DNA from: Rhodoplanes serenus
GTDB taxonomy: Bacteria; Pseudomonadota; Alphaproteobacteria; Rhizobiales; Xanthobacteraceae
Assembly: GCA_945893085.1 (NCBI GenBank)
Contig: CAMDEB010000001.1
Coordinates: forward strand, 1-62,704
Reading direction: 5' to 3'
DNA length: 62,704 bases
A program made the position numbers and the translations under genes. Shown here piece after piece: positions 11,729 to 53,860 of this stretch. Under the pieces are notes generated by a model. The model searched no databases, was not told the DNA's origin, and worked only from the letters and a program-made list of their open reading frames with translations. How positions within the stretch are numbered: position 1 is the first letter of the stretch; each line of letters opens with the position of its first letter.

Positions 11729-12730
11729 GTGGATTTCACCGGCTGCTCCGTCCTGATCACCGGCGGAACCGGTTCGTTTGGGCAGCTTTGCACCCGGACC
11801 ATCCTCCGAAAGTTCACCGATGTGCGGCTCGTCGTGCTGTCGCGAGACGAGCACAAGCAGTACGACATGGCGCATGATCTGGGTGCTGACAGCGCGCGCG
11901 TGCGCTTCTTCATCGGCGACGTTCGCGACGGCGGCCGCCTGAAGATGGCGATGCGCGACGTCGACTACGTGATCCATGCGGCCGCGCTCAAGCACGTGTC
12001 GATCGCCGAATACAATCCTTTCGAGTGCATCCAGACCAACGTCATCGGCGCCGAGCAGGTGGTGCAGGCTGCGATCGCAAACAATGTCAAGAAGGTCATC
12101 GCGCTCTCGACCGACAAGGCGGCCAACCCGATCAATCTCTACGGCGCGAGCAAGCTTGCCTCCGACAAGATATTCGTCGCGGCCAATAGCCTCGCCGGCA
12201 AGGACGGCACCCGCTTCGCCGTCGTCCGCTACGGCAACGTGGTCGGCTCGCGCGGCAGCGTGGTGCCGTTTTTTCAGCGGCTGATCGATCAGAAGGCCAC
12301 CGAGCTGCCGATCACCGATCCGCGCATGACGCGATTCTGGATCACGCTCGATCAGGGCATCGACTTCGTGCTGTCTTGCTTTGCGATGATGCGCGGCGGC
12401 GAGATTTTCGTGCCGAAGATTCCGAGCATGAAGGTCGTCGATCTCGCGACCGCGCTCGCGCCGCAGCTCGGAACCAAGATCGTCGGCATCCGGCCGGGCG
12501 AGAAGCTGCATGAGGTCATGGTGACGACGGACGACTCGCGCACCACGGTCGAACTCCCTGACCGCTACGTGATCGAGCCACAGTTCAGCTTCTGGTCGAG
12601 CTCCCGGCCGACGCTGCCGGGAGCCAAGCCCGTCGCCGAAGGCTTCAGCTACGCGAGCGACAACAACAGCCAATGGCTCGACCTCGAAGGTATGCGCAAG
12701 CTTCTTGCCCCGGCGGTTCGCTCCGCATGA
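11729..12730 (+). CDS. pseB: UDP-N-acetylglucosamine 4,6-dehydratase (inverting)
   Basis: TGGTGSFG, SRDEHKQ, HAAALKHV, ALSTDKAANPINLYGASK, RYGNVVGSRGSV, GIRPGEKLHE. GTG start after a GGGAG RBS. Confidence 0.95.
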   Translation: MDFTGCSVLITGGTGSFGQLCTRTILRKFTDVRLVVLSRDEHKQYDMAHDLGADSARVRFFIGDVRDGGRLKMAMRDVDYVIHAAALKHVSIAEYNPFECIQTNVIGAEQVVQAAIANNVKKVIALSTDKAANPINLYGASKLASDKIFVAANSLAGKDGTRFAVVRYGNVVGSRGSVVPFFQRLIDQKATELPITDPRMTRFWITLDQGIDFVLSCFAMMRGGEIFVPKIPSMKVVDLATALAPQLGTKIVGIRPGEKLHEVMVTTDDSRTTVELPDRYVIEPQFSFWSSSRPTLPGAKPVAEGFSYASDNNSQWLDLEGMRKLLAPAVRSA

Positions 12731-13941
12731 GCGGCGTGCTGCCCTACGGCAGGCAAAGCGTCAGCGAGGACGACATCGCCGCGGTTGTGCGCGTGCTGCG
12801 CTCGGACTGGCTGACCCAGGGGCCGCTGGTCGAGGACTTCGAGGCGGGCATCCGCAATGCGACCGGCGCGGCCCACGCTGTCGCCTGCAACAGCGGCACC
12901 GCGGCACTGCATCTGGCCACGATGGCGGCCGGCTTGCGCGAAGGTCACGCAGCAATCGTGCCGGCGATCACCTTTGTCGCGACGGCAAACGCGGTGCGCA
13001 TGACCGGCGCGGAGGTCGTGTTCGCCGACGTCGATCCACAGACTGGACGAATGGACGCGAGCACACTCGAAGCGGCGTTCGCGCGTGCTGGGGCCGGCAG
13101 CCAGAAAATCCATGCGGTGCTGCCGGTGCATCTGGGTGGCGCGGCGTCGTCGGTGGCGGAGATCGCAGCCGTGAGCGGCCGCCGCAACGCGATGGTGATC
13201 GAGGATGCGTGCCACGCGCTCGGCGGCAGCCATCCCGACTCGCGGGGGCGGACGGTTCCGGCCGGCTCCTGTAGCGATAGCGCGATGGCCTGCTTCTCGT
13301 TTCATCCGGTCAAGCCGGTGACGACGGCGGAGGGCGGGGCGGTCACGACCAACGACGCGGTGCTCGCGGCACACATGCAGCGCTTGCGCAGCCACGGCCT
13401 GAACCGGCAGCCGGACCTGCTGGAAAATCGCGCGGAAGGTTTCGCTGCGTCGGGCGAGGTCAATCCCTGGTACTATGAGATGCCCGAGATTGGCTGGAAC
13501 TATCGCATCAGCGATATCCAGTGCGCGCTGGGCGTGTCGCAGCTCGAACAGCTCGTAGCCTTCCGCAGCCATCGCGATGCCCTGGCGCGGCAATATCGCC
13601 GCTTGCTCGCGCCGCTCGTGCCCTCGATCGTTCCGGCGCCCGAAGCGGAGGGCGTGCAGTCGGGCCATCATCTGTTCGTCGTGCTCATCGACTTCGATGC
13701 GCTGGGCCTCACACGGGCTCATGTGATGAAGGAGCTTCGGCAGCAGGGCGTGGGCACACAGGTTCATTACATTCCGGTGCCGTGGCAGCCATATTATGCA
13801 AGCCGCTACGGCAAGGGCGACTATCCGGGCGCCGCGCGCTACTACCGCCGCTGTCTTTCGCTGCCGCTGTTTGCGACGATGGGCGAAGCCGATGTGCCTC
13901 GCGTCGTCGAAACTCTGGCGAAGGTGCTCAAGCTTCAATGA
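12727..13941 (+). CDS. pseC: UDP-4-amino-4,6-dideoxy-N-acetyl-beta-L-altrosamine transaminase
   Basis: LPYGRQ, WLTQGP, EDACHALG, FSFHPVK (PLP Lys), GWNYR, QVHYIPV. ATGA overlap with pseB. Confidence 0.92.
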   Translation: MSGVLPYGRQSVSEDDIAAVVRVLRSDWLTQGPLVEDFEAGIRNATGAAHAVACNSGTAALHLATMAAGLREGHAAIVPAITFVATANAVRMTGAEVVFADVDPQTGRMDASTLEAAFARAGAGSQKIHAVLPVHLGGAASSVAEIAAVSGRRNAMVIEDACHALGGSHPDSRGRTVPAGSCSDSAMACFSFHPVKPVTTAEGGAVTTNDAVLAAHMQRLRSHGLNRQPDLLENRAEGFAASGEVNPWYYEMPEIGWNYRISDIQCALGVSQLEQLVAFRSHRDALARQYRRLLAPLVPSIVPAPEAEGVQSGHHLFVVLIDFDALGLTRAHVMKELRQQGVGTQVHYIPVPWQPYYASRYGKGDYPGAARYYRRCLSLPLFATMGEADVPRVVETLAKVLKLQ

Positions 13942-14480
13942 TGCTGCGGCGGCCACTCGCCGATGGCGCGGTGATGCTGAACGCGCTTGATGCGTCCGCC
14001 GCCGAAGGCCCGTATCTCGGATGGATGCACGACGCCGAGATCGGGCGATTTCTCGAATCCCGCTTCAGTTCGCATTCGGTTGAAAGCCTTGCCCGATTTA
14101 TCCGTGCGTCCAACGCCGCGCCCAATATCCTGCTTGCCGGAATTATCCTCGACGGGTGCCACGTCGGGAACATCAAGTTGACTTTGGATCATCATCATCG
14201 GCGTGCCGAGATCGGTATCGTCGTCGGCGACCGCGAGGTCTGGGGCCGCGGCGTGGCGCGCACGGCGATCAGGCTCGTCTCCGCGCACGCGTTCGACGAG
14301 CTTTCGATGAGCAAGCTTTCGGCGGGCTGCTACGCGGATAACATCGGTTCGATCCGCGCCTTCGAGGCGGCGGGATTTCACCGAGAGGCGGTGCGGCCGG
14401 GGCACTATATCTGCGACGGCAGGCGCGTCGACGGCGTCTATTTGGCGCGATTCATTGCGGGCCATGAGGGCCAGGCGTGA
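13938..14480 (+). CDS. GNAT N-acetyltransferase (RimL/PseH-like)
   Basis: YLGWMHD, HVGNIKL, EIGIVVGD..WGRG, NIGSIRAFEAAGF. ATGA overlap with pseC. Confidence 0.85.
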   Translation: MMLRRPLADGAVMLNALDASAAEGPYLGWMHDAEIGRFLESRFSSHSVESLARFIRASNAAPNILLAGIILDGCHVGNIKLTLDHHHRRAEIGIVVGDREVWGRGVARTAIRLVSAHAFDELSMSKLSAGCYADNIGSIRAFEAAGFHREAVRPGHYICDGRRVDGVYLARFIAGHEGQA

Positions 14481-15487
14481 GCCCGCGGCGCATCGGCGTT
14501 CTCGGTCTCGGTTCGATCGGGATGAGGCATGCGAGAAATCTCGCGCGGCTCGGCTGCGATGTTCTGGGCCACGACCCATCGGTGGACGCGTCGCGCGCGT
14601 TCGAAAGCGAATTCGGCCGCGCGGCGACAGCCAGCCGCGAACAAGTGTTTGCGGAGTCGAGCGCCGTCGTCGTGGCGACGCCGAACCGCTTTCACCTTGA
14701 CGATATTCGCGACGCCATCGTCGCGGGAAAGCCTGCGTTGGTGGAGAAGCCGCTCGGCCACGATGCCGAGCTTGCGGCGCACCTCGTCCGGCTCGCGGCC
14801 GCGCGCGGCGTGATGCTCGCGGTGTCTCACAATCTGCGTTTCAGGCCGGTGGTGCGGCAGGTGAGAAAACTTCTGGACGAGGGCGTGATCGGCAAGCCGG
14901 CATGGGCGCGGTTTTGTTGCGCTTCGTGGTTGCCGGACTGGCGGCCGGGTCGCGATTACCGGACCAACTACGCGGCCGATCCGGAGACCGGCGGGGTCAT
15001 CTTCGATTCCATTCATGAATTAGACCTCGCCGTCCATTTGCTCGGTTCGGCCGCACTCCGGAGCGCGGCCGCCCAGCGCACCGGGCTTCTCGATATCGCC
15101 TCGGAAGACCTCGCGGATATCGTGCTGGATCACGAGAGCGGCTGCCAGACCGCGGTGCACCTCGACTACGTGACCCGGCCGCGGCGGCGCGTGCTGGAGA
15201 TCGGCGACCCCGGCGGGGCGTTGTTCGCCGACCTGCGCACGGGGAATGTGAAGGTCACAGGCATCGACGGCACCGTTCGCGCCGACGAGACGCAGCCTTT
15301 CGATCCGAATGGCGAATACCTCGCCGCGATGCAGGATTTCCTCGATGCCTCGAACGGGGCGGGGAAGCCCGAATGCCCGGCTGCCGACGCGCTCGAAACG
15401 CTGCGTCTTGCTTGTGCGGCGCGCGGCATGGCCGGGCTGCCGCAGTCCAATTCGAGCAAGGCCTCGCGGCAGGGCGTGAGCCACTAG
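14477..15487 (+). CDS. Gfo/Idh/MocA family oxidoreductase
   Basis: GLGSIGMRH, VEKP, LPDWRP..DYR..Y, GGVIFDSIHELD. Confidence 0.9.
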   Translation: MSPRRIGVLGLGSIGMRHARNLARLGCDVLGHDPSVDASRAFESEFGRAATASREQVFAESSAVVVATPNRFHLDDIRDAIVAGKPALVEKPLGHDAELAAHLVRLAAARGVMLAVSHNLRFRPVVRQVRKLLDEGVIGKPAWARFCCASWLPDWRPGRDYRTNYAADPETGGVIFDSIHELDLAVHLLGSAALRSAAAQRTGLLDIASEDLADIVLDHESGCQTAVHLDYVTRPRRRVLEIGDPGGALFADLRTGNVKVTGIDGTVRADETQPFDPNGEYLAAMQDFLDASNGAGKPECPAADALETLRLACAARGMAGLPQSNSSKASRQGVSH

Positions 15488-15563
15488 CCCTTTGTGGCGC
15501 TGCCAGGCGCCGATTGACCAGCAATCCGATAGATTGAACCGAAGAGAAGAAAGGGAGACCGAA

Positions 15564-16517
15564 ATGCTCGGAGCCGCCAACAAGCCCGTTCCGGCCAAAC
15601 AGCAGTTCGACATCATGGATTATCCCACCAACGGCTGCGCCGACCTTGGCGTCGTCATCGATCCGAAGGAGTGCGCGAAACTGCGCGACTACATCGACAA
15701 GAACCGTCCAGTCGGCAAGCACATCTTCTACGAGTCGAAGGCCGAGTTCGAGGCGAGCGGGCGGTGGCAGAACTACGCACCGGGTACGCGCGATCACAAC
15801 TTCCTGCTGCGCAAGGAGATCGATCTCTCGTTCATCGAGTCAAATCCCACATTCGTGCGCTACATGCAGCAGCTTTGCGGCAGGGATTACCAGATCTTCA
15901 AGAAGTCGATCATCCGGTCGATGCCGCGCTGGGCGATCCCGGACTGGTGCGTTGCCACCGTGGAGGACGTCGGCCGTCCGAACATGAATCCCTACATCAG
16001 GGATGAATTCCAGGACGTTCAGTTCTTCTTCTTCACCGACTTCCATCAGGACAAGACGCGTCCAACCTCCGACTTTGTGACGGTCTATGTCTATCTCGAC
16101 GAGGTCGACGAGAAGTATTCCGCCCTGAAGATTTTGACTGAGAGCCACGTGCTCGGCATGACCGGCTATCCTCACTCGATCCGCTCGTCGGCCAAGCCCG
16201 GCCGCTACTTCTACTCCGACAACATCGGCAACACGATCGAGTGCGGCCTGAAGACCGTCACTGGCGAGGCGGGTTCGATCTCGATCTTCCATTGCATGAC
16301 GCTGCACGGCACCGGCCTCAACGACAGCTCGAACCCGCGCATCTCGCTCCGGTACCTGCTGACGAAGAGCACGGGGAACACCGAGGTGACGCTACACGAT
16401 CGCGCCAACGACAAGATCGTCGGCCCGAAAATGATGTTCCCCACCCGCTACGACGTGAACGTCGACGGCTCGTTCAAGAAGACCGGATCTTCGCTGATGT
16501 CACTCGGTCTCGGCTGA
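15564..16517 (+). CDS. PhyH-like Fe(II)/2-oxoglutarate dioxygenase
   Basis: FHQD (HxD), VYVYLDEV, ESH, GEAGS..FHCMTLHG, RISLRY. AGGGAG RBS before ATG 15564. Confidence 0.8.
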   Translation: MLGAANKPVPAKQQFDIMDYPTNGCADLGVVIDPKECAKLRDYIDKNRPVGKHIFYESKAEFEASGRWQNYAPGTRDHNFLLRKEIDLSFIESNPTFVRYMQQLCGRDYQIFKKSIIRSMPRWAIPDWCVATVEDVGRPNMNPYIRDEFQDVQFFFFTDFHQDKTRPTSDFVTVYVYLDEVDEKYSALKILTESHVLGMTGYPHSIRSSAKPGRYFYSDNIGNTIECGLKTVTGEAGSISIFHCMTLHGTGLNDSSNPRISLRYLLTKSTGNTEVTLHDRANDKIVGPKMMFPTRYDVNVDGSFKKTGSSLMSLGLG

Positions 16518-16526
16518 CCGGGCAGC

Positions 16527-17537
16527 TTGACGCGGGCGGTTACGGCGGGCAGCGCGTTGTGGGCTTTTCGGGTTGCGTCGCGTCCGGAAGACGGCGGAGG
16601 GCATGTCGTTCGCTGTCTTGTGCTCGCGGACGCGCTCGCGGCGCTAGGCCATCGGGTGACGTTCGTGCTGGATGAGAGTGGCATGCGCTGGAAGGCGGAC
16701 ATCGCCGGGCGGGGACACGATTGTGTCCCGGCCTCGGCGGCCATGCCGGACAACAACGCGGGAAGCCTGCTCGATGGCTATCATTTCGGCGAAGCCGAAA
16801 TCGCATCGTGGCGCGAGCGGTCGCGTGTGCTGGCGGCAGTGATCGATCACCAGGATATCCCGCGCTGGGCCGAGGTGGTCGTTGCACCAGGTTTGCCGGC
16901 CGGTGAGGGCGGCTCTGGCCCGGCGATTGTCATGGCCGGGCTCGAATATGCGCTGGTCGACCCGCGGTTCGTTCGCACCGAGCCGCGCTCGATTTCGAAC
17001 AAGGTCATGAACGTGCTCGTGAGCTTCGGCCAGCGGGACTCGAAGAATGCGACATGCCTCGCACTCGACGCGCTGGAGCAGCTCGCCGAGATGCAAGACC
17101 GGGGAGCCACGATCGTAGCCGCGCTCAGCAGCTCGGCGGTGCATTTTGCGACGGTCGAACAGCGAGTGCGCGCGTTGCCAAACGTCGTATGCGCGGCGGA
17201 TGCGGATATGGCGAAGTGTTATGCGCAGGCCGATCTCGTCATCGGCGGCGGCGGAGTGGGCCTGCTGGAACGGATGGCCGCGGGGCTGCCGTCGGTGTCG
17301 GTCGTGCTCGCCGGGAATCAGAAGCCGCAGATCGCGCTGTGCGCCGAGGCTGGCGGCACGCTCGATGCGGGTTCCATCGACGGTCTCCACGCAGCGGGCC
17401 TCGCGGACGCGATCGGATCCCTAGTGCGCTCGCCGGAGCGCCGCGCGGCGATGAGCGCCGCCGCCCGCCGCGCGGTCGATGGCGCGGGTGCACGACGTGT
17501 GGCCAGAACCATGTCGGAGCGGGCCGGTGTCCACTAG
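16527..17537 (+). CDS. pseG: UDP-2,4-diacetamido-2,4,6-trideoxy-beta-L-altropyranose hydrolase (PseG/SpsG)
   Basis: GGGHVVRCLVLA, DGYHF, GLEYALV, SFGQRD, GGGVGLLE, AGNQ, VDGAGARRV. Confidence 0.85.
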   Translation: MTRAVTAGSALWAFRVASRPEDGGGHVVRCLVLADALAALGHRVTFVLDESGMRWKADIAGRGHDCVPASAAMPDNNAGSLLDGYHFGEAEIASWRERSRVLAAVIDHQDIPRWAEVVVAPGLPAGEGGSGPAIVMAGLEYALVDPRFVRTEPRSISNKVMNVLVSFGQRDSKNATCLALDALEQLAEMQDRGATIVAALSSSAVHFATVEQRVRALPNVVCAADADMAKCYAQADLVIGGGGVGLLERMAAGLPSVSVVLAGNQKPQIALCAEAGGTLDAGSIDGLHAAGLADAIGSLVRSPERRAAMSAAARRAVDGAGARRVARTMSERAGVH

Positions 17538-18564: not shown

Positions 18565-19731
18565 ATGACGTCGCAGGGCCAGGTTCTCATCTTCGACACG
18601 ACACTGCGGGACGGCGAGCAGGCGCCGGGCGCCTCGATGACCGGCGAGCAGAAGCTGCACGTCGCGCGGCTGCTCGATCAGATGGGCGTCGACATCATAG
18701 AGGCGGGGTTTCCGATTTCGTCAGAGGGCGCGTTCAATGCGGTTCATTCAATCGCGCGAGAGGTCCGGAATTCGACGGTCGCGGCGCTGAGCCGGGCGGT
18801 GCGCGAAGACATCGATGCTTGCGTTCGGGCGCTGGAGCCTGCGCGGCGTAAGCGCATCCACACCTTCATTGCCACTAGCCCGATCCACATGCGCTACAAA
18901 CTCCAGCTCTCCGCCGAGCAGGTCTATGAACGTGTGATCGACAGCGTCACCTACGCCCGGCGCTTTTGCGACGATGTGGAGTGGTCCTGCGAAGACGGCA
19001 CGCGAAGCGAGCCAGAGTTCCTGTATCGCTGTTTCGAGGCCGCGATAAAGGCAGGCGCAAGCACAGTCAACATCGCCGATACCGTCGGCTTCACCACGCC
19101 TGAGGAGTTCTTCGATCTCATCACGGGCATCCGCGAGCAGGTGCCGGGCATGGAGAAGGTGCGCTTCTCGGTGCATTGCCACGACGATCTCGGCATGGCC
19201 GTCGCCAACAGCCTGTCGGCGGTCCGGGCCGGTGCGCGCCAGATCGAATGCACCATCAACGGCGTCGGCGAGCGGGCGGGCAACGCGTCGCTGGAAGAAG
19301 TCGTCATGGCGATGAAGGTCCGCGCTGCGGCCTATGGAGTGCGCACCAACGTGAAGACCGAGCATCTGAAGCAGTTGTCGAAGGCGGTCTCGGAATACAC
19401 CGGCTTTGTGGTGCCGCCGAACAAGGCGGTGGTGGGTGCGAACGCCTTCGCCCACGAGTCGGGCATCCATCAGCACGGCGTGATCATGAATCGCAACACC
19501 TACGAGATCATCGATCCGGCCGAGGTCGGCAGCGGCGAGTCGTCGCTGGTGATGGGGCGGCATTCCGGCCGGCATGCGTTGCAGCTCAAGCTGCGCCAGT
19601 ATGGAGTCGATCTGGGCGGCAACGCGTTCGAAGAGGTGTACCGGCGCTTCAAGCTGATGGCCGATGACCGGAAAGCGGTCAGCGACGGGGAGATTCTCGC
19701 GCTGGTCAAAACCCATGCTGGGCTGAACTGA
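18565..19731 (+). CDS. leuA: Short-form 2-isopropylmalate synthase-like DRE-TIM metallolyase (no regulatory domain)
   Basis: FDTTLRDGEQAPG, IEAGFP, HCHDDLG, NGVGERAGN, AHESGIHQHG, GRHSGRHA. Ends at 388 aa. Confidence 0.9.
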   Translation: MTSQGQVLIFDTTLRDGEQAPGASMTGEQKLHVARLLDQMGVDIIEAGFPISSEGAFNAVHSIAREVRNSTVAALSRAVREDIDACVRALEPARRKRIHTFIATSPIHMRYKLQLSAEQVYERVIDSVTYARRFCDDVEWSCEDGTRSEPEFLYRCFEAAIKAGASTVNIADTVGFTTPEEFFDLITGIREQVPGMEKVRFSVHCHDDLGMAVANSLSAVRAGARQIECTINGVGERAGNASLEEVVMAMKVRAAAYGVRTNVKTEHLKQLSKAVSEYTGFVVPPNKAVVGANAFAHESGIHQHGVIMNRNTYEIIDPAEVGSGESSLVMGRHSGRHALQLKLRQYGVDLGGNAFEEVYRRFKLMADDRKAVSDGEILALVKTHAGLN

Positions 19732-19735
19732 ATTC

Positions 19736-23318: not shown

Positions 23319-23319
23319 T

Positions 23320-23997: not shown

Positions 23998-24034
23998 ATC
24001 GGATCCACGTCATGATTCGTCTAGGACGTACATC

Positions 24035-26742: not shown

Positions 26743-26771
26743 CCGGCGGAAGCGCAAGAAAGATCGCCAAA

Positions 26772-44227: not shown

Positions 44228-45088
44228 ATGTCCGCGATCAATCTAGCTGCACGCCTGCTGCGGCGCCTTGAGCGGCTGACGATGGGCCGCCGTGCCTACA
44301 AATGGATCGTGCGCGATTGGTTGCCGCCGGGCGACCTTCGGGCCGCTTCGGCCGTGCTCGGCACGATGCGGTTTATCCGCCAGATCGAGCCGCAGCCGAT
44401 GGCGGGACCGGCGGCGCGCGATATCTTGGTGCTCGCGCCGCACCCTGACGATGAGGTCATCGGGCCCGGCGGTACGCTGATCCGCGCCGCGCGCGCAGGT
44501 CAGAAGGTGAGCGTCCTATTCGTGACCTCCGGCAAGGGCGAGGAAGCGGCCGAGCGTGTCGCCGAGGCTCGCATGTGTTGCGCCTCATTGGGCTTCGAGG
44601 CGACGTATCTTGGTGGCATCGCGGGACAAATTGGTATTCTCGATCCGGCAAGGGCAATCGCCGAAGTGGTTGCTCGCATTCGTCCCGGCGCGATCTTCGT
44701 GCCGTTTGTTCTCGATGACCACGCCGACCATCGCCGCGTTAATGAAGTGCTGCTGCATGCGCTTGCCGGCGCCAAGAGCGCGGATGCGGAAATCTGGGCC
44801 TACCAAGTTTATTCGCCGCTGCCAGGCAATGTCGTGGTCGATGTGACTGATGTGATCGGCGCCAAGGCTGATGCGATTCGAATTTACCGTTCGCAAATGG
44901 CGCATCGCGACTGGGCGCATTTCGCGCTCGGTCTCAACGCATTCAATTGCCGGCTGCTGCAGGGCGTTGGCGGCGCACGCTATGCTGAAAGCTTCTTCGT
45001 CGTGCCAAGCGGAGAGTACGTCGAAATTTGTCGCCAATACTTCCGTCTGGCGGACACTTATCCCGGCGTCGCCAATGCCCGGCAATGA
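44228..45088 (+). CDS. PIG-L/LmbE family N-deacetylase 2
   Basis: APHPDDEVIGPGG, DDHADH, YRSQ, AESF. Confidence 0.9.
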   Translation: MSAINLAARLLRRLERLTMGRRAYKWIVRDWLPPGDLRAASAVLGTMRFIRQIEPQPMAGPAARDILVLAPHPDDEVIGPGGTLIRAARAGQKVSVLFVTSGKGEEAAERVAEARMCCASLGFEATYLGGIAGQIGILDPARAIAEVVARIRPGAIFVPFVLDDHADHRRVNEVLLHALAGAKSADAEIWAYQVYSPLPGNVVVDVTDVIGAKADAIRIYRSQMAHRDWAHFALGLNAFNCRLLQGVGGARYAESFFVVPSGEYVEICRQYFRLADTYPGVANARQ

Positions 45089-46124: not shown

Positions 46125-46747
46125 TCCGCAGCCGCTGTGTCGATGTGTTTCAAGCGAAACCGGATGAAACGGCGATCGCCGCGGAGATTATGGGCGTCTA
46201 TCGGTTCCGCACGCTCGAACCCGCCGATTTTGAAGCGTCGCCGCTTGGACGCGAAAAGGGCCGGGCTACGAATTTCGCGCAGCGCATGCGGCTGGGCCAT
46301 CAGGCGTGGGGTTATCTCGCGCCGGACGGCACCGTGGCCTGTTATCTGTGGCTCAGTTCGCCGCAGCTTGGCGAGTACCAGCCTGATTTTGAACTGGGCC
46401 TTCGTGCAAAAATTCCTTCGGACGCGGCCTATATCTGGGACTGCCGGTCCGATCCTCGCCACGAGCGGCAGGGTCTCTATCGCCACGGACTTGTCGCGCT
46501 GGCGCGCGAGGCGGCAACGATCGGGGCGCGATCGGTTCTGATCGTGACACGCCGCGAAAATCACCGGTCGCGAAACTCGATTCTGGCGGTGGGCTTCCGT
46601 CAGATCGGCACCATGAGGTTGTACGGCTTCGGCGGACTGGTCCTCGTCGCAGGCCGCGGCAGGCTCACGATGGCTTACGCGGGATCGGCGGTCGAGTTGC
46701 CAGGGTTGCAAAACCGGAAGCGGCCGATACAGTCCGCGCAGCCCTGA
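46121..46747 (+). CDS. GNAT family protein
   Basis: AYIWDCRSDPRHERQGLY, ENHRSRNSILAVGF. GTGA overlap with the previous gene. Confidence 0.75.
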   Translation: MIRSRCVDVFQAKPDETAIAAEIMGVYRFRTLEPADFEASPLGREKGRATNFAQRMRLGHQAWGYLAPDGTVACYLWLSSPQLGEYQPDFELGLRAKIPSDAAYIWDCRSDPRHERQGLYRHGLVALAREAATIGARSVLIVTRRENHRSRNSILAVGFRQIGTMRLYGFGGLVLVAGRGRLTMAYAGSAVELPGLQNRKRPIQSAQP

Positions 46748-46748
46748 C

Positions 46749-47798
46749 ATGATTTATCTCGGCAATCGCTCGCTTGCTGACGCGAAGGAAACACTCGCGC
46801 TTTATCAGCGGCGGATGAAGGAGCGTGTCGCTGCCGGCGAGCCGCTCTATCTCGAAATCGTCCCTCGCGTCGGCTGGCGGCTTCAGGCCTCCTGCCGCCA
46901 TCCCAAATGGCCGTACACGACTGATGCACTCGGCAATCGCAGCTCCGCCCCCGATGAATATGCCGCGGCCTCGGCCTGCCGAGTAGCGATCGCTGGAAAC
47001 TCTTACGTCCATTGCGACGAGGTGCCAGACCATGAAACCTGGGTGTGGCTGCTTCAGCAGTACCTCGGGCGCGACTTCCGTATCCACAATCTGGGCGTCA
47101 CCGGTTATTCGACCGACCAGTCATTCCTGCGCCTGGAGGAGTTCGCGCAGACGGAGCCGGTTGAGATGGCCCTTCTGACTGTGACGTCGACGGACATCTA
47201 CCGCAATCTCAACATGTGCCGTGCCTTCATCCTGAATGATTTCGAGGTGCCGCTCTATAAGCCGCGGTTCGTCGTGTGTGGTGGCGCCATTGAGCTGAAG
47301 GCTCCGCCTGCAGTGACCCTCGACACGCTGTGCGATTGTCTCGACGATCCTGAAATCCTGGCCGAGCTGCGCGCCCACGATGTTTTTTTTCCGACGGCGG
47401 GCCGTCAGCTTTCGCAGATCATGCGGCGCTTCCGCGTACCGCTGCGCGACGTATGGCAGCGCAATTTCGCCGAGGGCGTAGAAATGACCGAGCGCATCTG
47501 CGAGCAGTTCATCGGCTGGTGCCGGGAGCGCAGGATTGCGCCGGTCCTGCTGTTACTGCCGGTCTATTGGGGTGCCTTTCCGGCGGGGCGCGAGTTCGAC
47601 CTGATCCGCAGTCGGTTCGAATCGCGGGTGACAGTGATCGATGCCAGGGAGGTCTTTACCGACGAGCGGCTGCGCTTGCCCCGGTCGGCGCTGGCCCATC
47701 GTTTCAACCATTTCACCGCCGAGGTGAGCGCCTGGCTTGCCTCCTACATCGGCGATCGAATCCGGCGGGCGGTAGCCCGGCCCGTCGAGGCCGCGTGA
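46749..47798 (+). CDS. SGNH/GDSL hydrolase-like protein
   Basis: AGNSYVH (GDS-like), NLGVTGYSTDQ, late NHF. Confidence 0.75.
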   Translation: MIYLGNRSLADAKETLALYQRRMKERVAAGEPLYLEIVPRVGWRLQASCRHPKWPYTTDALGNRSSAPDEYAAASACRVAIAGNSYVHCDEVPDHETWVWLLQQYLGRDFRIHNLGVTGYSTDQSFLRLEEFAQTEPVEMALLTVTSTDIYRNLNMCRAFILNDFEVPLYKPRFVVCGGAIELKAPPAVTLDTLCDCLDDPEILAELRAHDVFFPTAGRQLSQIMRRFRVPLRDVWQRNFAEGVEMTERICEQFIGWCRERRIAPVLLLLPVYWGAFPAGREFDLIRSRFESRVTVIDAREVFTDERLRLPRSALAHRFNHFTAEVSAWLASYIGDRIRRAVARPVEAA

Positions 47799-48925
47799 GT
47801 TTGCCCGCTGTCTGCTATCCATTCGTCGGCGATACGGTGGGTGGCAGCCACAGGTCGATGGTCCCGGTCATCCGCGGGATGGCGGGGCGGGGCTTCAGGT
47901 CGCTGGTGGTGTTGCATCGCGATGGGCCGCTCGCCCAATTTTTTGCGAATGAGGGGATCGCGTGGATTGCTGCCCCCGATGTACGAGTGGTCGAAGCTGG
48001 TGCGATCTCGGCCCAGGTCATGGGCGCAGCGCAAGTTGCGCCGGCTCTGGTCCGCTTCCTGCGGCAGCACGGCGTTGTGATCGTTCACACCAACGACGCG
48101 CGCATGCATTTCACATGGGCCCTTGCAGCGCGGTTCGCCGGATGCCGGTTCGTCTGGCATCAGCGCAGCGCCGAGCCGTCTCGCAGGCTCGGCCACTATG
48201 CCCGGCTGGCCGATGCCGTGATCACCATCTCTGAATTCTGTCGGTCGTCGTTTGCGCCGCAGATGGCGTCGAAAGCCGTCGTGATCAAGGACCCCAACGA
48301 GCTGAGTGCAGCCGTCGACCGCGCGGAGAGTCGGCAAAGACTGCTGGCGGAGCTTGGGTGCGGGGAAGCTACGGCCATCGTCGGATATGTCGCCAATCTG
48401 ACACGGCAAAAGCGCCCAGGATTTTTCCTCGACATCGCAGGAGCGATCCACGCCCGCTTGGGCGATGCAGTACGCTTTCCAATGTTCGGAGAAAAACGTT
48501 CCGGACTTGCGGAGGAAATCGAAGCGCGGGCAGGCGTACTGGGTCTCGGTGGAGTGGTGCGGTTGATGGGGCCACGCTATCCGATCGAACCCTGGATCGC
48601 GGGCTGCGACGTGCTCGCCGCGCCTGCGACCGCGGAAGGGTTTGGGCGCACCTTAGTCGAGGCCATGCTGGTGGGGACGCCTGTGGTCGCCTCCGACGAC
48701 GCGGGGCACCGCGAAGCCATTCGCAACGGGAAGACAGGGCGGCTGATAGCGCCCGACAACGCCGAAGGTTTTGCCGATGCGGTGATGGCCTTGTTGCGCG
48801 ATCAAGGCATGCGTTTAGAAATCACGAGACAGGCGGCCGACTTCGCCCGTTCGGAATTTTCCAACGTCCGTCATCTGGACCGGCTTGCGGGGGTTTATCG
48901 CAGCCTCGTCGTATCGCCGAGATGA
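47795..48925 (+). CDS. GT4 family glycosyltransferase
   Basis: GGSHRS, VHTND, VANLTRQK, EGFGRTLVEAMLVGTPVVAS. Confidence 0.92.
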   Translation: MSLPAVCYPFVGDTVGGSHRSMVPVIRGMAGRGFRSLVVLHRDGPLAQFFANEGIAWIAAPDVRVVEAGAISAQVMGAAQVAPALVRFLRQHGVVIVHTNDARMHFTWALAARFAGCRFVWHQRSAEPSRRLGHYARLADAVITISEFCRSSFAPQMASKAVVIKDPNELSAAVDRAESRQRLLAELGCGEATAIVGYVANLTRQKRPGFFLDIAGAIHARLGDAVRFPMFGEKRSGLAEEIEARAGVLGLGGVVRLMGPRYPIEPWIAGCDVLAAPATAEGFGRTLVEAMLVGTPVVASDDAGHREAIRNGKTGRLIAPDNAEGFADAVMALLRDQGMRLEITRQAADFARSEFSNVRHLDRLAGVYRSLVVSPR

Positions 48926-50022
48926 CTGCAAAGACGGGCGTCATCATCCTGATCGCCGATATGGGGAGCGGCGGGGCGCAACAGGTGGCGTCGCAACTGG
49001 CTTCCCACTGGTCGAGCCGCGGCCGGCGTGTCGGATTGTTGACGCTGTCTGCGCCGGAAACGGACTTCTTCAAGGTAGACGGCAAGGTCGAGCGGTATTC
49101 GATCGGTGGCGTGGCGGATTCGCATTCCGTCGTCGAGCGGGTTACTCGGAATTTTCGGCGTGTTCTGGCGATCCGCCGTGTCTTGCGCGCGTTCAATGGC
49201 GACACCGCGATAAGCTTTATTGCGCCGATGAATGTGCTTCTGATCCTTGCAAGCTGGGGTCTTGGGCTGCGGACCGTCATTTCCGAGCGGAACGATCCGG
49301 CGCGCCAGTCGTTCGGGCTGTTCTGGGATGCCTTGCGCCGCATGCTCTATCGCTGCGCCGACAAGATTTCCGCAAACAGTCGCGCCGCGCTCGTAACGCT
49401 GCGGGCCTATGTGCCAGAACGCAAGCTTGTCTATCTGCCCAATCCGCTCCGGCAGGCGGTGGTCGAGGCGGTGCCGATGGAGGGGCGCGCTCCGATCGTG
49501 CTGAATGTCGGCCGCCTGCATCGGCAGAAGGGCCAGGATCTGCTCATCTGCGCCTTTGCCGCCGCGGCCGGGGAGTTGCTTGGCTGGCGCCTGTGCATCG
49601 TCGGCGAAGGTGAGGAGCGGCAACGCCTGCAATCGCTGATCGACTCGCTGTCGGTCAGCGATTGCGTGGAACTCGTTGGGCGGGCCGAAGACCCGTTCAT
49701 CTGGTATCGACGCGCTTCGATCTTTGCATTCCCATCCCGTTGGGAAGGAACGCCGAATGCGTTGCTTGAAGCCATGTCGTGCGAATTGCCGGTTGTGGTG
49801 AGCGGGGCTGCGCCGAGCGTGCTGGAGATTGTGCGCGACGGCCGCGAAGGTCTCGTCGCGCTGGGCGAGGACGTTCCGTCGCTCTCCCGCGCGCTCGTCA
49901 CGCTGGCGCGTGACGATGCATTGCGCCGCAGGCTCGGCTCAGCCGCGGCCCAACAAACAAAGCAGTTCGCGCCCGCCACCGTGTTTCATACCTGGGACGA
50001 AGCGTTGTGGCCCGCCGCATGA
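48922..50022 (+). CDS. GT4 family glycosyltransferase (PglH/PglJ-like)
   Basis: GGAQQV, ISERNDP, LPNP, VGRLHRQKG, SRWEGTPNALLEAM. Confidence 0.92.
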   Translation: MTAKTGVIILIADMGSGGAQQVASQLASHWSSRGRRVGLLTLSAPETDFFKVDGKVERYSIGGVADSHSVVERVTRNFRRVLAIRRVLRAFNGDTAISFIAPMNVLLILASWGLGLRTVISERNDPARQSFGLFWDALRRMLYRCADKISANSRAALVTLRAYVPERKLVYLPNPLRQAVVEAVPMEGRAPIVLNVGRLHRQKGQDLLICAFAAAAGELLGWRLCIVGEGEERQRLQSLIDSLSVSDCVELVGRAEDPFIWYRRASIFAFPSRWEGTPNALLEAMSCELPVVVSGAAPSVLEIVRDGREGLVALGEDVPSLSRALVTLARDDALRRRLGSAAAQQTKQFAPATVFHTWDEALWPAA

Positions 50023-51152
50023 AACGCATTCACGTCCTTACCGCCGGGTTCACCACGTCGAACGGCCAGGCATTCCTGATGCCGCTGCTATTGCACCAGA
50101 GTGCGCTGCGCGATGCCGGGATCGAGGTGCGGCTGTTTTCGCGGCCTTCGCCGCAATTGGCCGACTGCGACGTGTTGATGCTCGACGGCAAGTATTTTGC
50201 GCCGCGCTGGGCCGATGAAACGCCTGCCGTTCTGGAGGAGATCGCGGGCTATCGGGCCCGGATCGACAATCTCGTCTTCGTCGATCTGCTCGATAGCGCG
50301 GCATGGGATCACGCGCGGGCGCTGCCCTACGTCAAGCTCTATTGCAAAAGCCAGTTGCTGCGGGACCGCACGTCTTATCTCCGGCCGCTTTACGGATACC
50401 GTGCATTCACCGACGATTATCATCGGAATTGGGGCGTTGACGACCAGCCTCCGGTCGCCTCCGAACCCGTGAGTGATCCGGCGTTGCTCGTCAAACTCAC
50501 CGTGGGCTGGAATTCGGCGCTCGCCGACTACAGCGAGTGGGGTGCTTACCGCATGTATGCGTTCCAGCGGTTGCCGCTACGCGCGTTCCTGCGGTTTCCG
50601 GGATTGTTCGTGGCTCCGTCAGGTCCGCGGACGAATGCGGTCTCCTGCCGGATCGGCACCAGTTACTTGCGGCCGACGATCGGCTGTCAGCGCGTCCGGC
50701 TGGCTGCGCTTCTGAAGGATCGCGTGGCGGCTGGCCGGGTGCCTCGCAAGGACTATTTCGCGGAACTTCGAAACAGCAAGCTCGCGCTCTCGCCCTTCGG
50801 CTACGGAGAGATTTGCTACCGCGACTTTGAGATATTTATGAGCGGCGCCTTAATGCTCAAACCGGACATGTCGGGCGTGGAAACATGGCCGGACCTTTAT
50901 CGCGATGGTGAAACTATGGCAGCCCACCGCTGGGATCTCACCGACGTTCTTGACCGGATCGATGAAATCCTTTCGAACTACGGTCGCTATCTTGAGATTG
51001 CCGAGCGCGGGCAGGCTGCGTATCGGCGCTATCTCAGCGGCGAGGAGGCCGGATGGCTGTTCGCGGCGCACCTCTATTCAATTGTCGAGAAGGCCGGGGC
51101 GGCCGACCAGGCGCCGCAAAGCCCGTCTCCCGCGTTAGCACCGGTCGGTTGA
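50019..51152 (+). CDS. Putative glycosyltransferase (Glyco_trans_1_2/exostosin-like C-terminus)
   Basis: YFAELRNSKLALSPFGYGEICYRDFEIFMSGALMLKP, IAERG. Confidence 0.7.
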   Translation: MKRIHVLTAGFTTSNGQAFLMPLLLHQSALRDAGIEVRLFSRPSPQLADCDVLMLDGKYFAPRWADETPAVLEEIAGYRARIDNLVFVDLLDSAAWDHARALPYVKLYCKSQLLRDRTSYLRPLYGYRAFTDDYHRNWGVDDQPPVASEPVSDPALLVKLTVGWNSALADYSEWGAYRMYAFQRLPLRAFLRFPGLFVAPSGPRTNAVSCRIGTSYLRPTIGCQRVRLAALLKDRVAAGRVPRKDYFAELRNSKLALSPFGYGEICYRDFEIFMSGALMLKPDMSGVETWPDLYRDGETMAAHRWDLTDVLDRIDEILSNYGRYLEIAERGQAAYRRYLSGEEAGWLFAAHLYSIVEKAGAADQAPQSPSPALAPVG

Positions 51153-51153
51153 G

Positions 51154-52038
51154 ATGAATTCTCCTCGCACCGTGGTCCACATCGGCTATCCCAAGGCCGG
51201 GTCTACGTTCCTTCAGGACTACATGGCAAGCCATCCGGGGCTGGATAGCAGCCTGGAGTCAATGGATGAAATGGTCGACGAAGCGGCTGGCAAGCCGGAT
51301 CGCGCGCCGTCACGAGACGCAACCGGCGAACGTGTGCGGTTGATCACCAACGAGAAGATCGCGGAGTCTCTGGTTGCGACCGGCGACCCAACCGCCTGGC
51401 ATCGGAACAAGTTTATCCCCGGCACATGGGATGACACGGCGCGTCACACCCGGATCGATCCGCTGGAGACGGCTCGCCGCGTCCGGCGTGGGTATGGCGC
51501 TGACCTGGTGTTGATCGTGATCCGCGATCAGACTGCATGGTTGCAATCGGCTTACAAGTATTATCTGCCGAATCTTCCAGCCCAGCGTCGTACGTTTGCC
51601 GATTTCTGCGCGACCTCGATTGGGTGTGTGTACCTCGAGATCGGGCACTACGATCGTGTGATCGAGCCCTATTTTAGCGAGTTCGGTGCAAATAATGTGA
51701 AAGTGCTGCGCGCGGAAATGCTGCGCAACAGTCCGGATTTGTTCGCGTCCGCGTTCTGCGAATTTGTGGGAGTACCGTACCGGCCGATCCCTCAAGGCAG
51801 CGCCAACGTCGGAGCCACCAACGAGGCCGCCATATTGCGGGCGCGGTTTCCGATTGTCGATCGTCTGCCGCCAGGCGTGCGGAAATTCGGAAGCGCCGTG
51901 TTGTCGCGGGTGACGTCTGCGCGCGGCTCGATTTTTTCGAACGCTGAGATCGAGGGAATTCGCGTCCGCTATGCCGACAGCAACCGGCGCGTCGAGCGCC
52001 TGTTGCAAGAGGCTCACAAGGCTGCGGGGCGGGGCTGA
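51154..52038 (+). CDS. PAPS-dependent sulfotransferase family protein 2
   Basis: HIGYPKAGSTFLQ, RDQTAWLQSAY, FGANNVKVL, YADSN. Confidence 0.82.
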   Translation: MNSPRTVVHIGYPKAGSTFLQDYMASHPGLDSSLESMDEMVDEAAGKPDRAPSRDATGERVRLITNEKIAESLVATGDPTAWHRNKFIPGTWDDTARHTRIDPLETARRVRRGYGADLVLIVIRDQTAWLQSAYKYYLPNLPAQRRTFADFCATSIGCVYLEIGHYDRVIEPYFSEFGANNVKVLRAEMLRNSPDLFASAFCEFVGVPYRPIPQGSANVGATNEAAILRARFPIVDRLPPGVRKFGSAVLSRVTSARGSIFSNAEIEGIRVRYADSNRRVERLLQEAHKAAGRG

Positions 52039-52046
52039 TTCTCAAC

Positions 52047-52910
52047 GTGAGCGCATTATCCATTGTTCGCTGGCTGCGGCATGGCCCCTTTGCGTTTCTG
52101 GGGCCGGTCTGGGTGCAATTCGGACGGCTCTATCGCGGTGCTGCACGTCACATCCCCGGCCTTTCGGTTCCGCAAAAGATCGGGCCCTACGGGCCGTTCC
52201 GTTTGGTCCCGGAGTTCACATTCTCCAACTTCCAGAATTGGGGTGGAATCCATAACAAAGGATTCCGCACCTGTATCGAAGCCTGCCGGGGCAAGTCTTG
52301 TGTACTCGATGTCGGTGCCCACGTCGGTCTCGTCACGATGCCGGCCGCGGGCGTTCTTGCAAAAGGCGGCCACGTTCACGCGTTCGAGCCCGCACAAGCC
52401 AACGCGCGCATCCTGCGCCGGCACCTCACGCTCAATGACATCGCAAACGTCGAAGTCGTCGAGGCGTTGGTTGGCGAGACCGACGGCGCGCGCGTCCCTT
52501 TCTTCGAAAGCGCGGGTCCGCACGGGCAGAATTCCATCGTGCTCAAAGGTGGGGACAAGCTCGCGAGCGAATGGGGCGGTTATTCCCGAACCGAGCGGCC
52601 ACAAGTCTCGCTCGACGGCTACTGTGAACGCCTTGGGCTGTCGCCCGAGATCATCAAGATCGACGTGGAGGGTGGCGAACTTGGCGTGCTGCGCGGCGCC
52701 CGCGCCACGCTTGCACGATGCCGTCCGCTCCTGGTACTGAGCGTCCATCCCCGTGAAATCCAGTTGGCCGGCGAAAGTCTTGACGCTCTGCGCTGGCTGC
52801 TCGACGACCTCGCCTACGACGTCCGGGACCTCGAAGGTCATCCGGTTGCCGAATTCAAGCTCGATGAGTATGTCGTCGCGCCACGCAATGTCATAAACAG
52901 GTCCACATGA
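52047..52910 (+). CDS. FkbM family methyltransferase 1
   Basis: LDVGAHVG, AFEP, SLD, KIDVEGGE. Confidence 0.9.
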   Translation: MSALSIVRWLRHGPFAFLGPVWVQFGRLYRGAARHIPGLSVPQKIGPYGPFRLVPEFTFSNFQNWGGIHNKGFRTCIEACRGKSCVLDVGAHVGLVTMPAAGVLAKGGHVHAFEPAQANARILRRHLTLNDIANVEVVEALVGETDGARVPFFESAGPHGQNSIVLKGGDKLASEWGGYSRTERPQVSLDGYCERLGLSPEIIKIDVEGGELGVLRGARATLARCRPLLVLSVHPREIQLAGESLDALRWLLDDLAYDVRDLEGHPVAEFKLDEYVVAPRNVINRST

Positions 52911-53860
52911 TTGCAGGAAAACTCACCAGCGCCTACGAAACGATGCGGGATCGCGGTCCGCTTGTGATGCTTTCCGCGATCGGGCGCTTGGGGCAGGCGG
53001 CGGCCGAGCAAGCCTTCGGCCGCCGCTTCCTCCTGCGATCTATCCACAATTATCGGATGTATCTCGACCTCCAGGACCCAGGCCTGTCTCGTTCGCTGCT
53101 GCTATTCGGCACGCGCGAGGTCGATCACAAGATCATGCTGGAGAAAATCGTGCGTCCAGGGATGACGATTTTCGATATCGGCGGGAACATTGGCTACTAC
53201 CCGCTTATGGAACTGTCCCTCCTCCGCGGGACGGGAAAGATGGTGATCGCCGAGCCGTCGCCAAGCAACGTCGCGTTGCTGCGGCGAAATCTCGATCTCA
53301 ACGGATATGGCGATGTGCTGGTGCTCGACGCGGCGGTCTCCGATCGGCCGGGCCGGCGCAATTTCTATCTGTCCGAGCAGTCCAATCTCGGAACCTTCCA
53401 TCCGGTTGGCCACGGGTCCGAGACTTTGACGGGCGGGACCGTGGACGTCGAGACGCTGACCGTGCCTATCATGACGGAGCGTTTCGGGCCGCCGGATCTG
53501 CTGCGGATGGATGTCGAGGGCCACGAGGTCGAGGTGCTCAATGGCATGATCGAGGATGTCAGCCGAGGCGCCTACGCGCCAACCGTGATCTTCGAGCCAC
53601 ATCTGAGCAGATATAGCCCCGGGCACGACATGGCGGCGACGCTGCGCGCGCTGTTTTCGTTCGGCTATCGCGTGCCGATGCTGTCGACGTCGGATCGTGG
53701 GCGCGCGCTGATCGCGGCAAAAGGGTACAGGCCGGGCGAACGGATCGCGACGGACGGCGTTTATAGGACCCTGTTTGCCGACATCAGCCATGATGACGCG
53801 ATCGATCTTCTGTGTAACACCGGCGGGGCACGGACTGTCATCCTTGCGAAGGGCGCGTAA
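52907..53860 (+). CDS. FkbM family methyltransferase 2
   Basis: FDIGGNIGYY, AEP, AAVSD, RMDVEGHE. Confidence 0.9.
   Translation: MIAGKLTSAYETMRDRGPLVMLSAIGRLGQAAAEQAFGRRFLLRSIHNYRMYLDLQDPGLSRSLLLFGTREVDHKIMLEKIVRPGMTIFDIGGNIGYYPLMELSLLRGTGKMVIAEPSPSNVALLRRNLDLNGYGDVLVLDAAVSDRPGRRNFYLSEQSNLGTFHPVGHGSETLTGGTVDVETLTVPIMTERFGPPDLLRMDVEGHEVEVLNGMIEDVSRGAYAPTVIFEPHLSRYSPGHDMAATLRALFSFGYRVPMLSTSDRGRALIAAKGYRPGERIATDGVYRTLFADISHDDAIDLLCNTGGARTVILAKGA

What the first reader, a model, noticed from the sequence alone, without database searches (positions are those of the whole stretch)
11729..53860. ~42 kb operon-like run with three NeuB synthases and four cytidylyltransferases: a multi-nonulosonic-acid, heavily tailored glycan system
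Seen: three divergent NeuB genes (17548, 32416, 42428), one NeuA, three SpsF-type genes, three aminotransferases, three Gfo/Idh/MocA oxidoreductases, several GNATs and two deacetylases, mostly translationally coupled. Each NeuB sits in its own sub-block with a cytidylyltransferase and tailoring enzymes. Established: canonical Pse, Leg and Neu pathways each need one synthase and one CMP-transferase. Inference: the locus makes several different 9-carbon (or other ulosonic) sugars, some probably undescribed. Only the pseB/C/H/G precursor route is recognisable; no NeuC/LegG epimerase or LegB is in the window, so the substrates of at least two synthases are unexplained.
Basis: partly seen in the sequence, partly recalled or inferred. 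Interest (0 to 1): 0.8.

Follow-up and report, generated by a model that had tools for sequence, protein, structure and literature searches.

The report
Mosaic operon, three unusual ulosonate cassettes
A lake bacterium carries a 40-gene surface-sugar operon with three very different sialic-acid-type synthases, none scoring as a known type, each in its own reusable gene cassette, so it likely makes several unusual acidic sugars whose structures are untested.

Summary
The gene inventory is real: 40 co-directional genes, three NeuB synthases 25-33% identical to each other, and four cytidylyltransferases. None of the three passes the PseI or NeuB/LegI cut-off. The genome has a complete legionaminic pathway on contig C3 with its own synthase, so it probably does not account for them.

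The run is a mosaic of cassettes that recur elsewhere:
(A) PseB/C/G-like genes with NeuB1, whose pocket has Gly where PseI has Phe, plus ATP-grasp, GSA aminotransferase and deacetylase.
(B) Oxidoreductase, NeuB fused to a D-lyxose-isomerase-like cupin, and NeuA.
(C) A dehydrogenase/aminotransferase/SpsF block with no synthase.
(D) A short GT2, NeuB3 and a CMP-transferase.
Relatives of A, B and D occur in near-complete genomes lacking NeuC.

Multi-NeuB loci are not rare: 2 of 27 genus relatives have three or more on one contig, and 18 of 400 class genomes have three or more matches. This scan has already reported cassette B and three-NeuB loci on other DNA. Two look-ups found no note on the GT2-NeuB link. 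Products are inferred, and deep tree branching is unresolved. New variant of a known kind.

The parts
7444..8590 (+). MarR/EPS-type HTH regulator and RfaH-like antiterminator leading the locus
   Evidence: TIGR04176 and TIGR01955 hits, both below cut-off; the same pair heads related loci in G001, G007, G008, G010, G041, L092
11607..11614 (+). ops-like element (GCGGTAGC) about 120 nt upstream of pseB
   Evidence: The same core lies upstream of the first gene in L092, G007, G010, G041 and own contig C294; not found in the G008 and G001 stretches examined; about 0.007 expected by chance per 325 nt. The ops consensus is recalled.
11729..17537 (+). Cassette A precursor arm: PseB, PseC, GNAT, Gfo/Idh/MocA (14477), PhyH dioxygenase (15564), PseG-like hydrolase (16527)
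   Evidence: PseB and PseC above cut-off, PseG-like below; PF05721
17548..18561 (+). NeuB1, the cassette-A synthase; motif KISSG where PseI has KIASF
   Evidence: TIGR03586 246<340 and TIGR03569 270<400; 4-row clade with SH-aLRT 100; Gly in 116 of 120 top homologues
18565..28055 (+). Cassette A tailoring arm: LeuA-like (388 aa, no regulatory domain), ATP-grasp, SpsF1 (20812), GNAT-GSA aminotransferase (21540), PIG-L deacetylase (23320), 623-aa unknown (24035), CysE-like acetyltransferase, Rieske-less CMAH-like MBL protein (26772)
   Evidence: The whole order is conserved in L092 at 51-82% identity; ATP-grasp, SpsF, GSA, PIG-L and the unknown are also in G007 and G225
28093..31271 (+). MsbA/PglK/HepA-type ABC exporter, and a 473-aa protein resembling GT-B enzymes (candidate ulosonate transferase)
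   Evidence: Atlas structure neighbours Glyphos_transf/Capsule_synth at TM about 0.6
31305..35706 (+). Cassette B: Gfo2 (31305), NeuB-SAF-cupin fusion (32416-33990), P-loop sulfotransferase-like gene (no Pfam hit), NeuA (34966)
   Evidence: Among 45 related loci, Gfo2 in 33, a CMP-transferase in 31, HAD in 16; the cupin's best folds are D-lyxose isomerases
35703..41766 (+). Block C, no synthase: GNAT, Gfo3, DegT aminotransferase, 296-aa unknown, SpsF2, KpsS-like (PF05159) transferase
   Evidence: the DegT-SpsF-Gfo3 trio recurs in G008, G010, G041, G225, L053, L054
41767..45088 (+). Cassette D: 223-aa stand-alone GT2 (41767), NeuB3 (42428-43486), SpsF3 (43498), PIG-L deacetylase (44228)
   Evidence: The GT2 lies beside NeuB3-clade genes in 16 of 17 viral loci; reciprocal link; closest structure PDB 6P61
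45075..53860 (+). Assembly and decoration genes: FemAB-like GNAT, GNAT, SGNH-like, two GT4, GT1_2-like, sulfotransferase, two FkbM methyltransferases

Best explanation
This is a 40-gene surface-glycan operon, likely RfaH-controlled, built from four gene blocks that recur in other genomes, and it likely makes at least three different CMP-activated ulosonic acids, none by a canonical synthase. Shown: gene content, order, domain fusions, clade membership, recurrence of the blocks. Inferred: all chemistry. Cassette A would take UDP-GlcNAc through PseB, PseC, a GNAT and the PseG-like hydrolase to a free 2,4-diamino-6-deoxyhexose, which NeuB1 condenses with PEP to a pseudaminic-backbone acid. Its open (Gly) pocket and its ATP-grasp and deacetylase neighbours suggest an N-acyl group other than acetyl. 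Gfo1, the GSA aminotransferase and its GNAT would turn a further hydroxyl into an amine or amide; SpsF1 would activate the product. Cassette B would make its own aldose from a ketose with the fused lyxose/mannose-type isomerase and give a nitrogen-free, Kdn-like acid for NeuA. Cassette D would obtain a free aldose through the short GT-A protein acting as a nucleotide-sugar hydrolase, which is the least certain step. Block C has no synthase and would aminate and activate an ulosonate made by another block. GT-B enzymes would add the sugars to a lipid-linked glycan exported by the ABC transporter and decorated by sulfation, methylation and acylation.
For: HMM: all three NeuBs fall below both curated cut-offs, while the C3 synthase passes. 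Tree of 75 rows: 13-, 12- and 4-row clades, each SH-aLRT 100, hold NeuB2, NeuB3 and NeuB1; the 12 PseI-scoring rows form a separate clade (99). Cassette A: same order in L092. G007 (97% complete) has one NeuB, of this clade, beside PseB/C/G, and no NeuC. 11 of 11 PseI-scoring sequences inspected read KIASF, against Gly in 116 of 120 NeuB1 homologues. Cassette B: the model (pLDDT 90.7) matches D-lyxose isomerases 2y0o (E 1.6e-12, rmsd 1.7 A, 164 columns), 7nzp, 7nzq and 3kmh best among cupins. H421, H423, E428, H462 and E474 are invariant in 39 sequences. NeuC lies nearby in only 7 of 45 loci, 6 of which also hold another NeuB. G010 (100%) and G041 (99%) have the cassette and no NeuC match. Cassette D: GT2 and a CMP-transferase are each present in 16 of 17 NeuB3-clade viral loci, with no NeuC, PseG or HAD. 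Reciprocally, 15 of 16 cellular GT2 hits have a NeuB (8) or a CMP-transferase (14) within 1.5 kb, and 9 of 10 further viral loci have a NeuB nearby. G225 (100%) has a GT2-linked NeuB and no NeuC. Precedents: SpsF works with a NeuB homologue in B. subtilis Leg synthesis (PMC7439481, passages); direct Kdo-to-Kdo8N conversion (PMC4402001, passage).
Against: No enzyme or product is tested. AU tests do not reject NeuB1 as sister to PseI (p 0.56), NeuB1 nested within PseI (p 0.07), or NeuB3 as sister to the LegI rows (p 0.50). NeuB1 keeps the Pse-type Ser at position 184 in 112 of 120 homologues. The source paper calls these positions 'mostly but not strictly conserved' (PMC7371886, section 7). The genome has NeuC/LegG on C3, which could feed NeuB3 or NeuB1. 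All 5 cellular GT2 genomes checked have NeuC, although in the 4 also searched for NeuB it sits beside another synthase. The GT2 contexts are not independent: 11 of 16 cellular hits come from two genera, and 12-13 of the 17 viral loci share other genes. The GT2's fold matches ordinary transferases. Cassette B here lacks the HAD phosphatase seen in 16 of 45 loci, and that query found none in the 81%-complete genome.
Confidence: 0.65

Rival explanations
1. The synthases are divergent but chemically ordinary. NeuB1 is a fast-evolving PseI making Pse5Ac7Ac, NeuB3 uses the Leg or ManNAc-type precursor from the C3 cluster, and NeuB2 makes plain Kdn. All novelty lies in later decoration.
For: AU tests cannot reject PseI or LegI sister positions. 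PseB and PseC pass their cut-offs. NeuC/LegG is present on C3. PseI orthologues are interchangeable across phyla, which favours decoration after condensation (bioRxiv 10.1101/2022.03.25.485807, passages).
Against: The pocket residue differs from PseI across the NeuB1 clade. NeuB3-clade viral loci have no NeuC within 7 kb. The C3 cluster has its own synthase and two CMP-transferases.
Confidence: 0.22
2. Some blocks do not make nine-carbon acids. The SpsF-type enzymes activate other substrates, and NeuB2 or NeuB3 gives a 7-, 8- or 10-carbon acid or feeds a branched-sugar route.
For: There are four cytidylyltransferases for three synthases. The SpsF-type genes hit KdsB models best, far below cut-off. 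An isomerase does not fix aldose length. C10 CMP-ulosonates are reported in Magnetospirillum (bioRxiv 10.64898/2026.04.20.719630, section 12 part 2).
Against: [quoted passage not shown] The cassette-B transferase is NeuA/PseF-like and is co-conserved with the fusion.
Confidence: 0.11
3. The run is a metagenomic mis-assembly of loci from different strains.
For: The genome is a 471-contig assembly with 4.8% contamination and several paralogous MarR-RfaH loci. No single contig from another study spans all three NeuBs.
Against: Depth is even and contigs overlap in X1. A 21-kb contig from another study bridges blocks C, D and the decoration genes. L092 links cassette A to the ABC gene. Block boundaries are translationally coupled, and composition is typical of the genome.
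Confidence: 0.02

Closest known systems
Pseudaminic acid pathway PseB/C/H/G/I/F (C. jejuni PseI, PDB 8H2C)
   Same: PseB and PseC pass their cut-offs; a PseG-like gene and a GNAT are present; 8H2C is NeuB1's best PDB hit (163 bits)
   Different: No PseI by HMM; Gly instead of Phe in the pocket; SpsF-type rather than PseF; extra ATP-grasp, GSA aminotransferase, deacetylase and hydroxylase-like genes
B. subtilis SpsM/C/D/G/E/F legionaminic pathway (PMC7439481, passages read)
   Same: An SpsF-type cytidylyltransferase serves a NeuB homologue; SpsE (1VLI) is NeuB3's best PDB hit (210 bits)
   Different: One synthase there. Cassette D has no dehydratase, aminotransferase or SpsG-like gene of its own, and its GT2 is closer to 6P61 than to SpsA
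Multi-synthase organisms: C. jejuni 11168 (NeuB, PseI, LegI) and the Leptospira interrogans NulO cluster (PMC3438082, section 7; bioRxiv 10.1101/2022.03.25.485807, passages)
   Same: Several synthases and CMP-transferases in one genome; two of each in one cluster in Leptospira
   Different: C. jejuni's three are the canonical types, and the Leptospira cluster includes a full Leg route. Here all three window synthases fall below both cut-offs and the Leg route lies elsewhere
Chromobacterium violaceum SpsE-like protein (PDB 3G8R) and D-lyxose isomerases (2Y0O, 7NZP, 3KMH)
   Same: NeuB2's synthase part matches 3G8R (44% identity, rmsd 1.6 A); its C-domain matches the isomerases
   Different: 3G8R is titled 'putative' and its 350-residue chain has no cupin; no paper holding nonulosonic acid + NeuB + cupin was found
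Kdn-9-phosphate route of Bacteroides thetaiotaomicron (recalled) and Shewanella Kdo8N formation (PMC4402001, one passage; enzyme classes recalled)
   Same: A nitrogen-free aldose plus PEP (cassette B); dehydrogenase plus aminotransferase acting on an ulosonate (blocks A and C)
   Different: No HAD phosphatase in this copy of cassette B; Gfo/Idh/MocA dehydrogenases and dedicated SpsF-type activators

Membership tests
NeuB-family PEP-dependent ulosonate synthase | PF03102 above cut-off, with metal/PEP motifs (N-H-x-G, K-I-x-S, S-D/T-H, E-K/R-H) | tested here: met
   All three. NeuB2 has Asp for the first Glu, and STHE for SDHT
PseI | TIGR03586 >= 340.25 | tested here: not met
   246, 111 and 251; none in the genome passes
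PseI | Phe after K-I-A-S (cjNeuB3 F129) | tested here: not met
   Gly in NeuB1, Cys in NeuB2 and NeuB3
PseI | Falls inside the PseI clade | tested here: inconclusive
   Outside in the best tree; sister position p-AU 0.56, nested position p-AU 0.07
Pse pathway | PseB, PseC, PseH, PseG and PseF precursor set | tested here: inconclusive
   PseB and PseC met; PseG 102<154; no PseH hit for the adjacent GNAT; SpsF instead of PseF
NeuB/LegI | TIGR03569 >= 399.65 | tested here: not met
   270, 127 and 350 in the window; 459 for the C3 gene
NeuB/LegI | Linked hydrolysing 2-epimerase NeuC/LegG | tested here: not met
   The only copy is on C3 beside its own synthase
D-lyxose/mannose isomerase cupin (NeuB2 C-domain) | Cupin fold with H-x-H...E...H metal site and a second Glu, as aligned to 2Y0O | tested here: met
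   PF07385 in 34 of 39 members. Residue roles are recalled
D-lyxose/mannose isomerase cupin (NeuB2 C-domain) | Aldose-ketose isomerase activity | not testable with these tools
   Needs an enzyme assay
Kdn-9-phosphate route | Linked HAD phosphatase | tested here: not met
   Absent from the window and not found with that query in the genome; present in 16 of 45 related loci
RfaH-controlled surface polysaccharide operon | NusG paralogue plus an ops-like element ahead of a long operon | tested here: met
   The RfaH score is below cut-off and control is not shown
Any family | Chemical identity of the CMP-sugars | not testable with these tools
   No isolate or metabolite data

The most novel reading that the evidence does not exclude
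The operon holds three undescribed entry routes to ulosonic acids. One is a GT-A-fold nucleotide-sugar hydrolase that replaces NeuC/PseG for a widespread synthase clade (1144 proteins at E<=1e-80, also in viral contigs). One is an isomerase-fused synthase that feeds itself from central ketoses. One is a PseB/C/G-fed synthase for a non-acetyl, hydroxylated, tri-amino acid made with a Rieske-less CMAH-like enzyme. Together they would give several new sugar structures on one glycan.
Probability: 0.2. Interest if true: 0.75.

Novelty: new variant of a known kind. Interest (0 to 1): 0.42.

Why it matters
Mass-spectrometry surveys find unassigned and higher-carbon ulosonic acids in environmental bacteria (PMC8157484, passages; bioRxiv 10.64898/2026.04.20.719630, section 12 part 2), but the genes behind them are mostly unknown. 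This locus supplies small, self-contained two- to four-gene cassettes (B and D) that can be tested directly. It also shows that databases label these clades 'SpsE' or 'legionaminate synthase' without support. Having three NeuB genes in one locus is, by itself, only moderately unusual.

Tried and rejected
1. 'C3 supplies the missing substrates': judged unlikely but not excluded.
2. Placing the three synthases relative to PseI and LegI: the deep branches are unresolved. The careful tree did not finish, so the quick tree was used, and no AU test rejected any grouping. Rows were reduced at 80% identity, and fragments and most cupin rows were dropped before tree building (109 rows to 66, plus 9 added). 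References were labelled by HMM score and context; no biochemically characterised sequence is in the tree.
3. Close NeuB3 relatives: none in 400 class genomes at E<=1e-75, none with a single-sequence viral scan, best plasmid hit 44%. No plasmid hits for NeuB2, the GSA domain or the GT2 at the thresholds used.
4. Literature searches with no paper: nonulosonic acid + NeuB + cupin; 8-amino + nonulosonic + maritimum; KdnA + KdnB + Kdo8N. The primary Kdo8N paper is not held, so the enzyme classes of KdnA/B are recalled. Subscription journals and supplements were not seen.
5. The 623-aa and 296-aa unknowns could not be assigned; their role as transferases is a guess.
6. No sigma-70-like promoter was found before pseB.
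7. No RNA holder was listed.
8. Eight Lachnospiraceae loci carry the cupin fusion without Gfo2 or a CMP-transferase nearby; this is unexplained.


Full report
Observation. The window is contig C1 of a 4.27-Mb, 471-contig assembly (81% complete, 4.8% contamination). Its DNA is found in lake and freshwater metagenomes. From 11729 to 53860 there are 40 intact co-directional ORFs; 20 of 39 junctions overlap or abut and 31 of 39 are within 20 nt. Upstream lie a MarR-type regulator, an RfaH-like gene and an ops-like element at 11607. The element recurs in 4 of 6 related loci examined and in a paralogous locus of the same genome. Contigs of the possible source run tile nearly the whole region, and a 21-kb contig from another study bridges 37114-50900 at about 98% identity.

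The genome-wide check. The genome holds five NeuB matches: three here, one on C3, and a fragment at the end of C294. C3 carries legB, legC, neuC/legG, neuD, a nucleotidyltransferase, two CMP-transferases, wbuX/Z and ptmA/F-like genes. Its synthase passes TIGR03569, and its composition matches the genome. A Leg route therefore exists, but it is complete without the window. No gene in the genome passes the PseI cut-off.

How unusual is the multiplicity? Among 27 other genomes of the genus, 7 have NeuB and 6 of these have two or more. G023 has four within 26 kb and G008 three within 39 kb. Among 400 class genomes at least 90% complete, 174 have a match and 18 have three or more (counted from the table; matches are not copy numbers, and 122 places were not listed). 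G219 has three within 41 kb. In print, C. jejuni 11168 has three synthases (bioRxiv 10.1101/2022.03.25.485807, passages) and the L. interrogans cluster two (PMC3438082, section 7). Multiplicity is uncommon but not exceptional.

The synthases. They are 25-33% identical to each other and fall below both curated cut-offs. In a 75-row quick tree each sits in its own clade with SH-aLRT 100, apart from the 12 PseI-scoring rows. The deep order is unresolved: AU tests on a 37-row set did not reject NeuB1 beside PseI (p 0.56) or within it (0.07), or NeuB3 beside LegI (0.50).

Cassette A. L092 has the same genes in the same order from MarR to the ABC gene at 51-82% identity. G007 and G225 keep PseB/C/G, NeuB1, ATP-grasp, SpsF, GSA, PIG-L and the 623-aa unknown, but show no LeuA-like gene. 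G007 has no other NeuB and no NeuC, so NeuB1 is likely the synthase of the PseB/C/G arm. A position reported to be Phe in Pse synthases and Gly in Neu/Leg synthases (PMC7371886, section 7) is Gly in 116 of 120 homologues, while position 184 keeps the Pse-type Ser in 112 of 120. I infer a Pse-backbone substrate with a different N-acyl group. The MBL protein is a Rieske-less structural relative of CMP-Neu5Ac-hydroxylase-family clusters (TM 0.85), and its best PDB hit is a diiron monooxygenase. Gfo1, SpsF and the GSA aminotransferase also occur beside PseB/C- or PseI-type genes elsewhere (L049, L072, G219), often with SpsF and GSA fused. That fits an amination-and-activation module. Amination of Kdo is established in Shewanella (PMC4402001, passage), and a pentadeoxy-nonulosonic acid is known from Flexibacter maritimus (PMC4052302, passage).

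Cassette B. NeuB2 carries a C-terminal cupin whose predicted fold matches D-lyxose isomerases best and whose metal-site residues are invariant. In 45 related loci across several phyla, Gfo2 is present in 33, a CMP-transferase in 31, a HAD phosphatase in 16, NeuC in 7 and PseG in 2. G010 and G041 have it without any NeuC. A self-fed, nitrogen-free, Kdn-like product is the likeliest reading. The missing HAD and the role of Gfo2 are open. I reached this reading before consulting the scan's notes, which report the same cassette many times on other DNA.

Block C. It has a dehydrogenase, a DegT aminotransferase, a GNAT, SpsF2 and a KpsS-like transferase, but no synthase. The DegT-SpsF-Gfo3 trio recurs in at least six other loci. 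It explains the fourth cytidylyltransferase.

Cassette D. NeuB3 heads a large clade (1144 proteins at E<=1e-80 among 8000 candidates scored). In 17 viral loci it lies beside a short GT2 (16) and a CMP-transferase (16), with no NeuC, PseG or HAD. Searching back with the GT2 alignment gave 16 hits in 350 phylum genomes. Of these, 15 have a NeuB or CMP-transferase within 1.5 kb, as do 9 of 10 further viral loci for NeuB. The sets are not independent (11 of 16 from two genera; 12-13 viral loci related). Five of these genomes checked have NeuC, in four shown to lie beside another synthase, whereas G225 has none. The GT2 is a single GT-A domain closest to Leptospira PDB 6P61. [quoted passage not shown] I therefore propose a substrate-releasing hydrolase, with low confidence.

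Verdict. The locus is real, the inference of several ulosonates is likely, and the substrate gap is narrowed to testable candidates. It is a new variant of known nonulosonate-bearing surface-glycan loci. Interest 0.42.

Noticed in passing
G000:C3:282-14715 (L023): Complete legionaminic-acid cluster with amidotransferase genes wbuX/Z and ptmA/F-like genes, inside a second glycan locus that parallels this one (ABC, two FkbM, MarR, AsnB, PMT-type genes at 40-69% identity).
   Followed up: partly
G000:C294, C330, C359, C416, C27: Further MarR/RfaH pairs, a second PseB (65%), a second GSA aminotransferase with GNAT and PIG-L, and a fifth NeuB cut by the end of C294: more glycan loci in pieces.
   Followed up: partly
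window:26772-28055: MBL-fold protein resembling CMP-Neu5Ac hydroxylase without its Rieske domain; distant relatives lie next to NeuB genes in L167-L169 and G219.
   Followed up: partly
window:18565-19731: LeuA-like enzyme of 388 aa lacking the regulatory domain, between NeuB1 and the ATP-grasp gene; a longer LeuA is on C454. Possible source of an acyl donor.
   Followed up: partly
window:1-4040 (- strand): cysD, cysN/C and a B12-dependent radical SAM gene next to the locus; a likely PAPS supply for the sulfotransferase-like genes at 34036 and 51154.
   Followed up: no
   Followed up: no
L181, L183, L214-L219: Viral contigs carry CMP-transferase, GT2 and NeuB in a row; in several, an M28 peptidase-like gene precedes and a LicD-like gene follows, and some have what look like phosphonate-pathway genes (read from the translations, not scanned).
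   Followed up: no
L198, L201-L203, L208, L209: The GT2-linked NeuBs in these genomes are short, with open frames of only about 230-255 aa and apparently no SAF domain.
   Followed up: no
L077-L084: Lachnospiraceae carry the NeuB-cupin fusion alone among housekeeping genes, with no CMP-transferase or Gfo2 within 10 kb.
   Followed up: no
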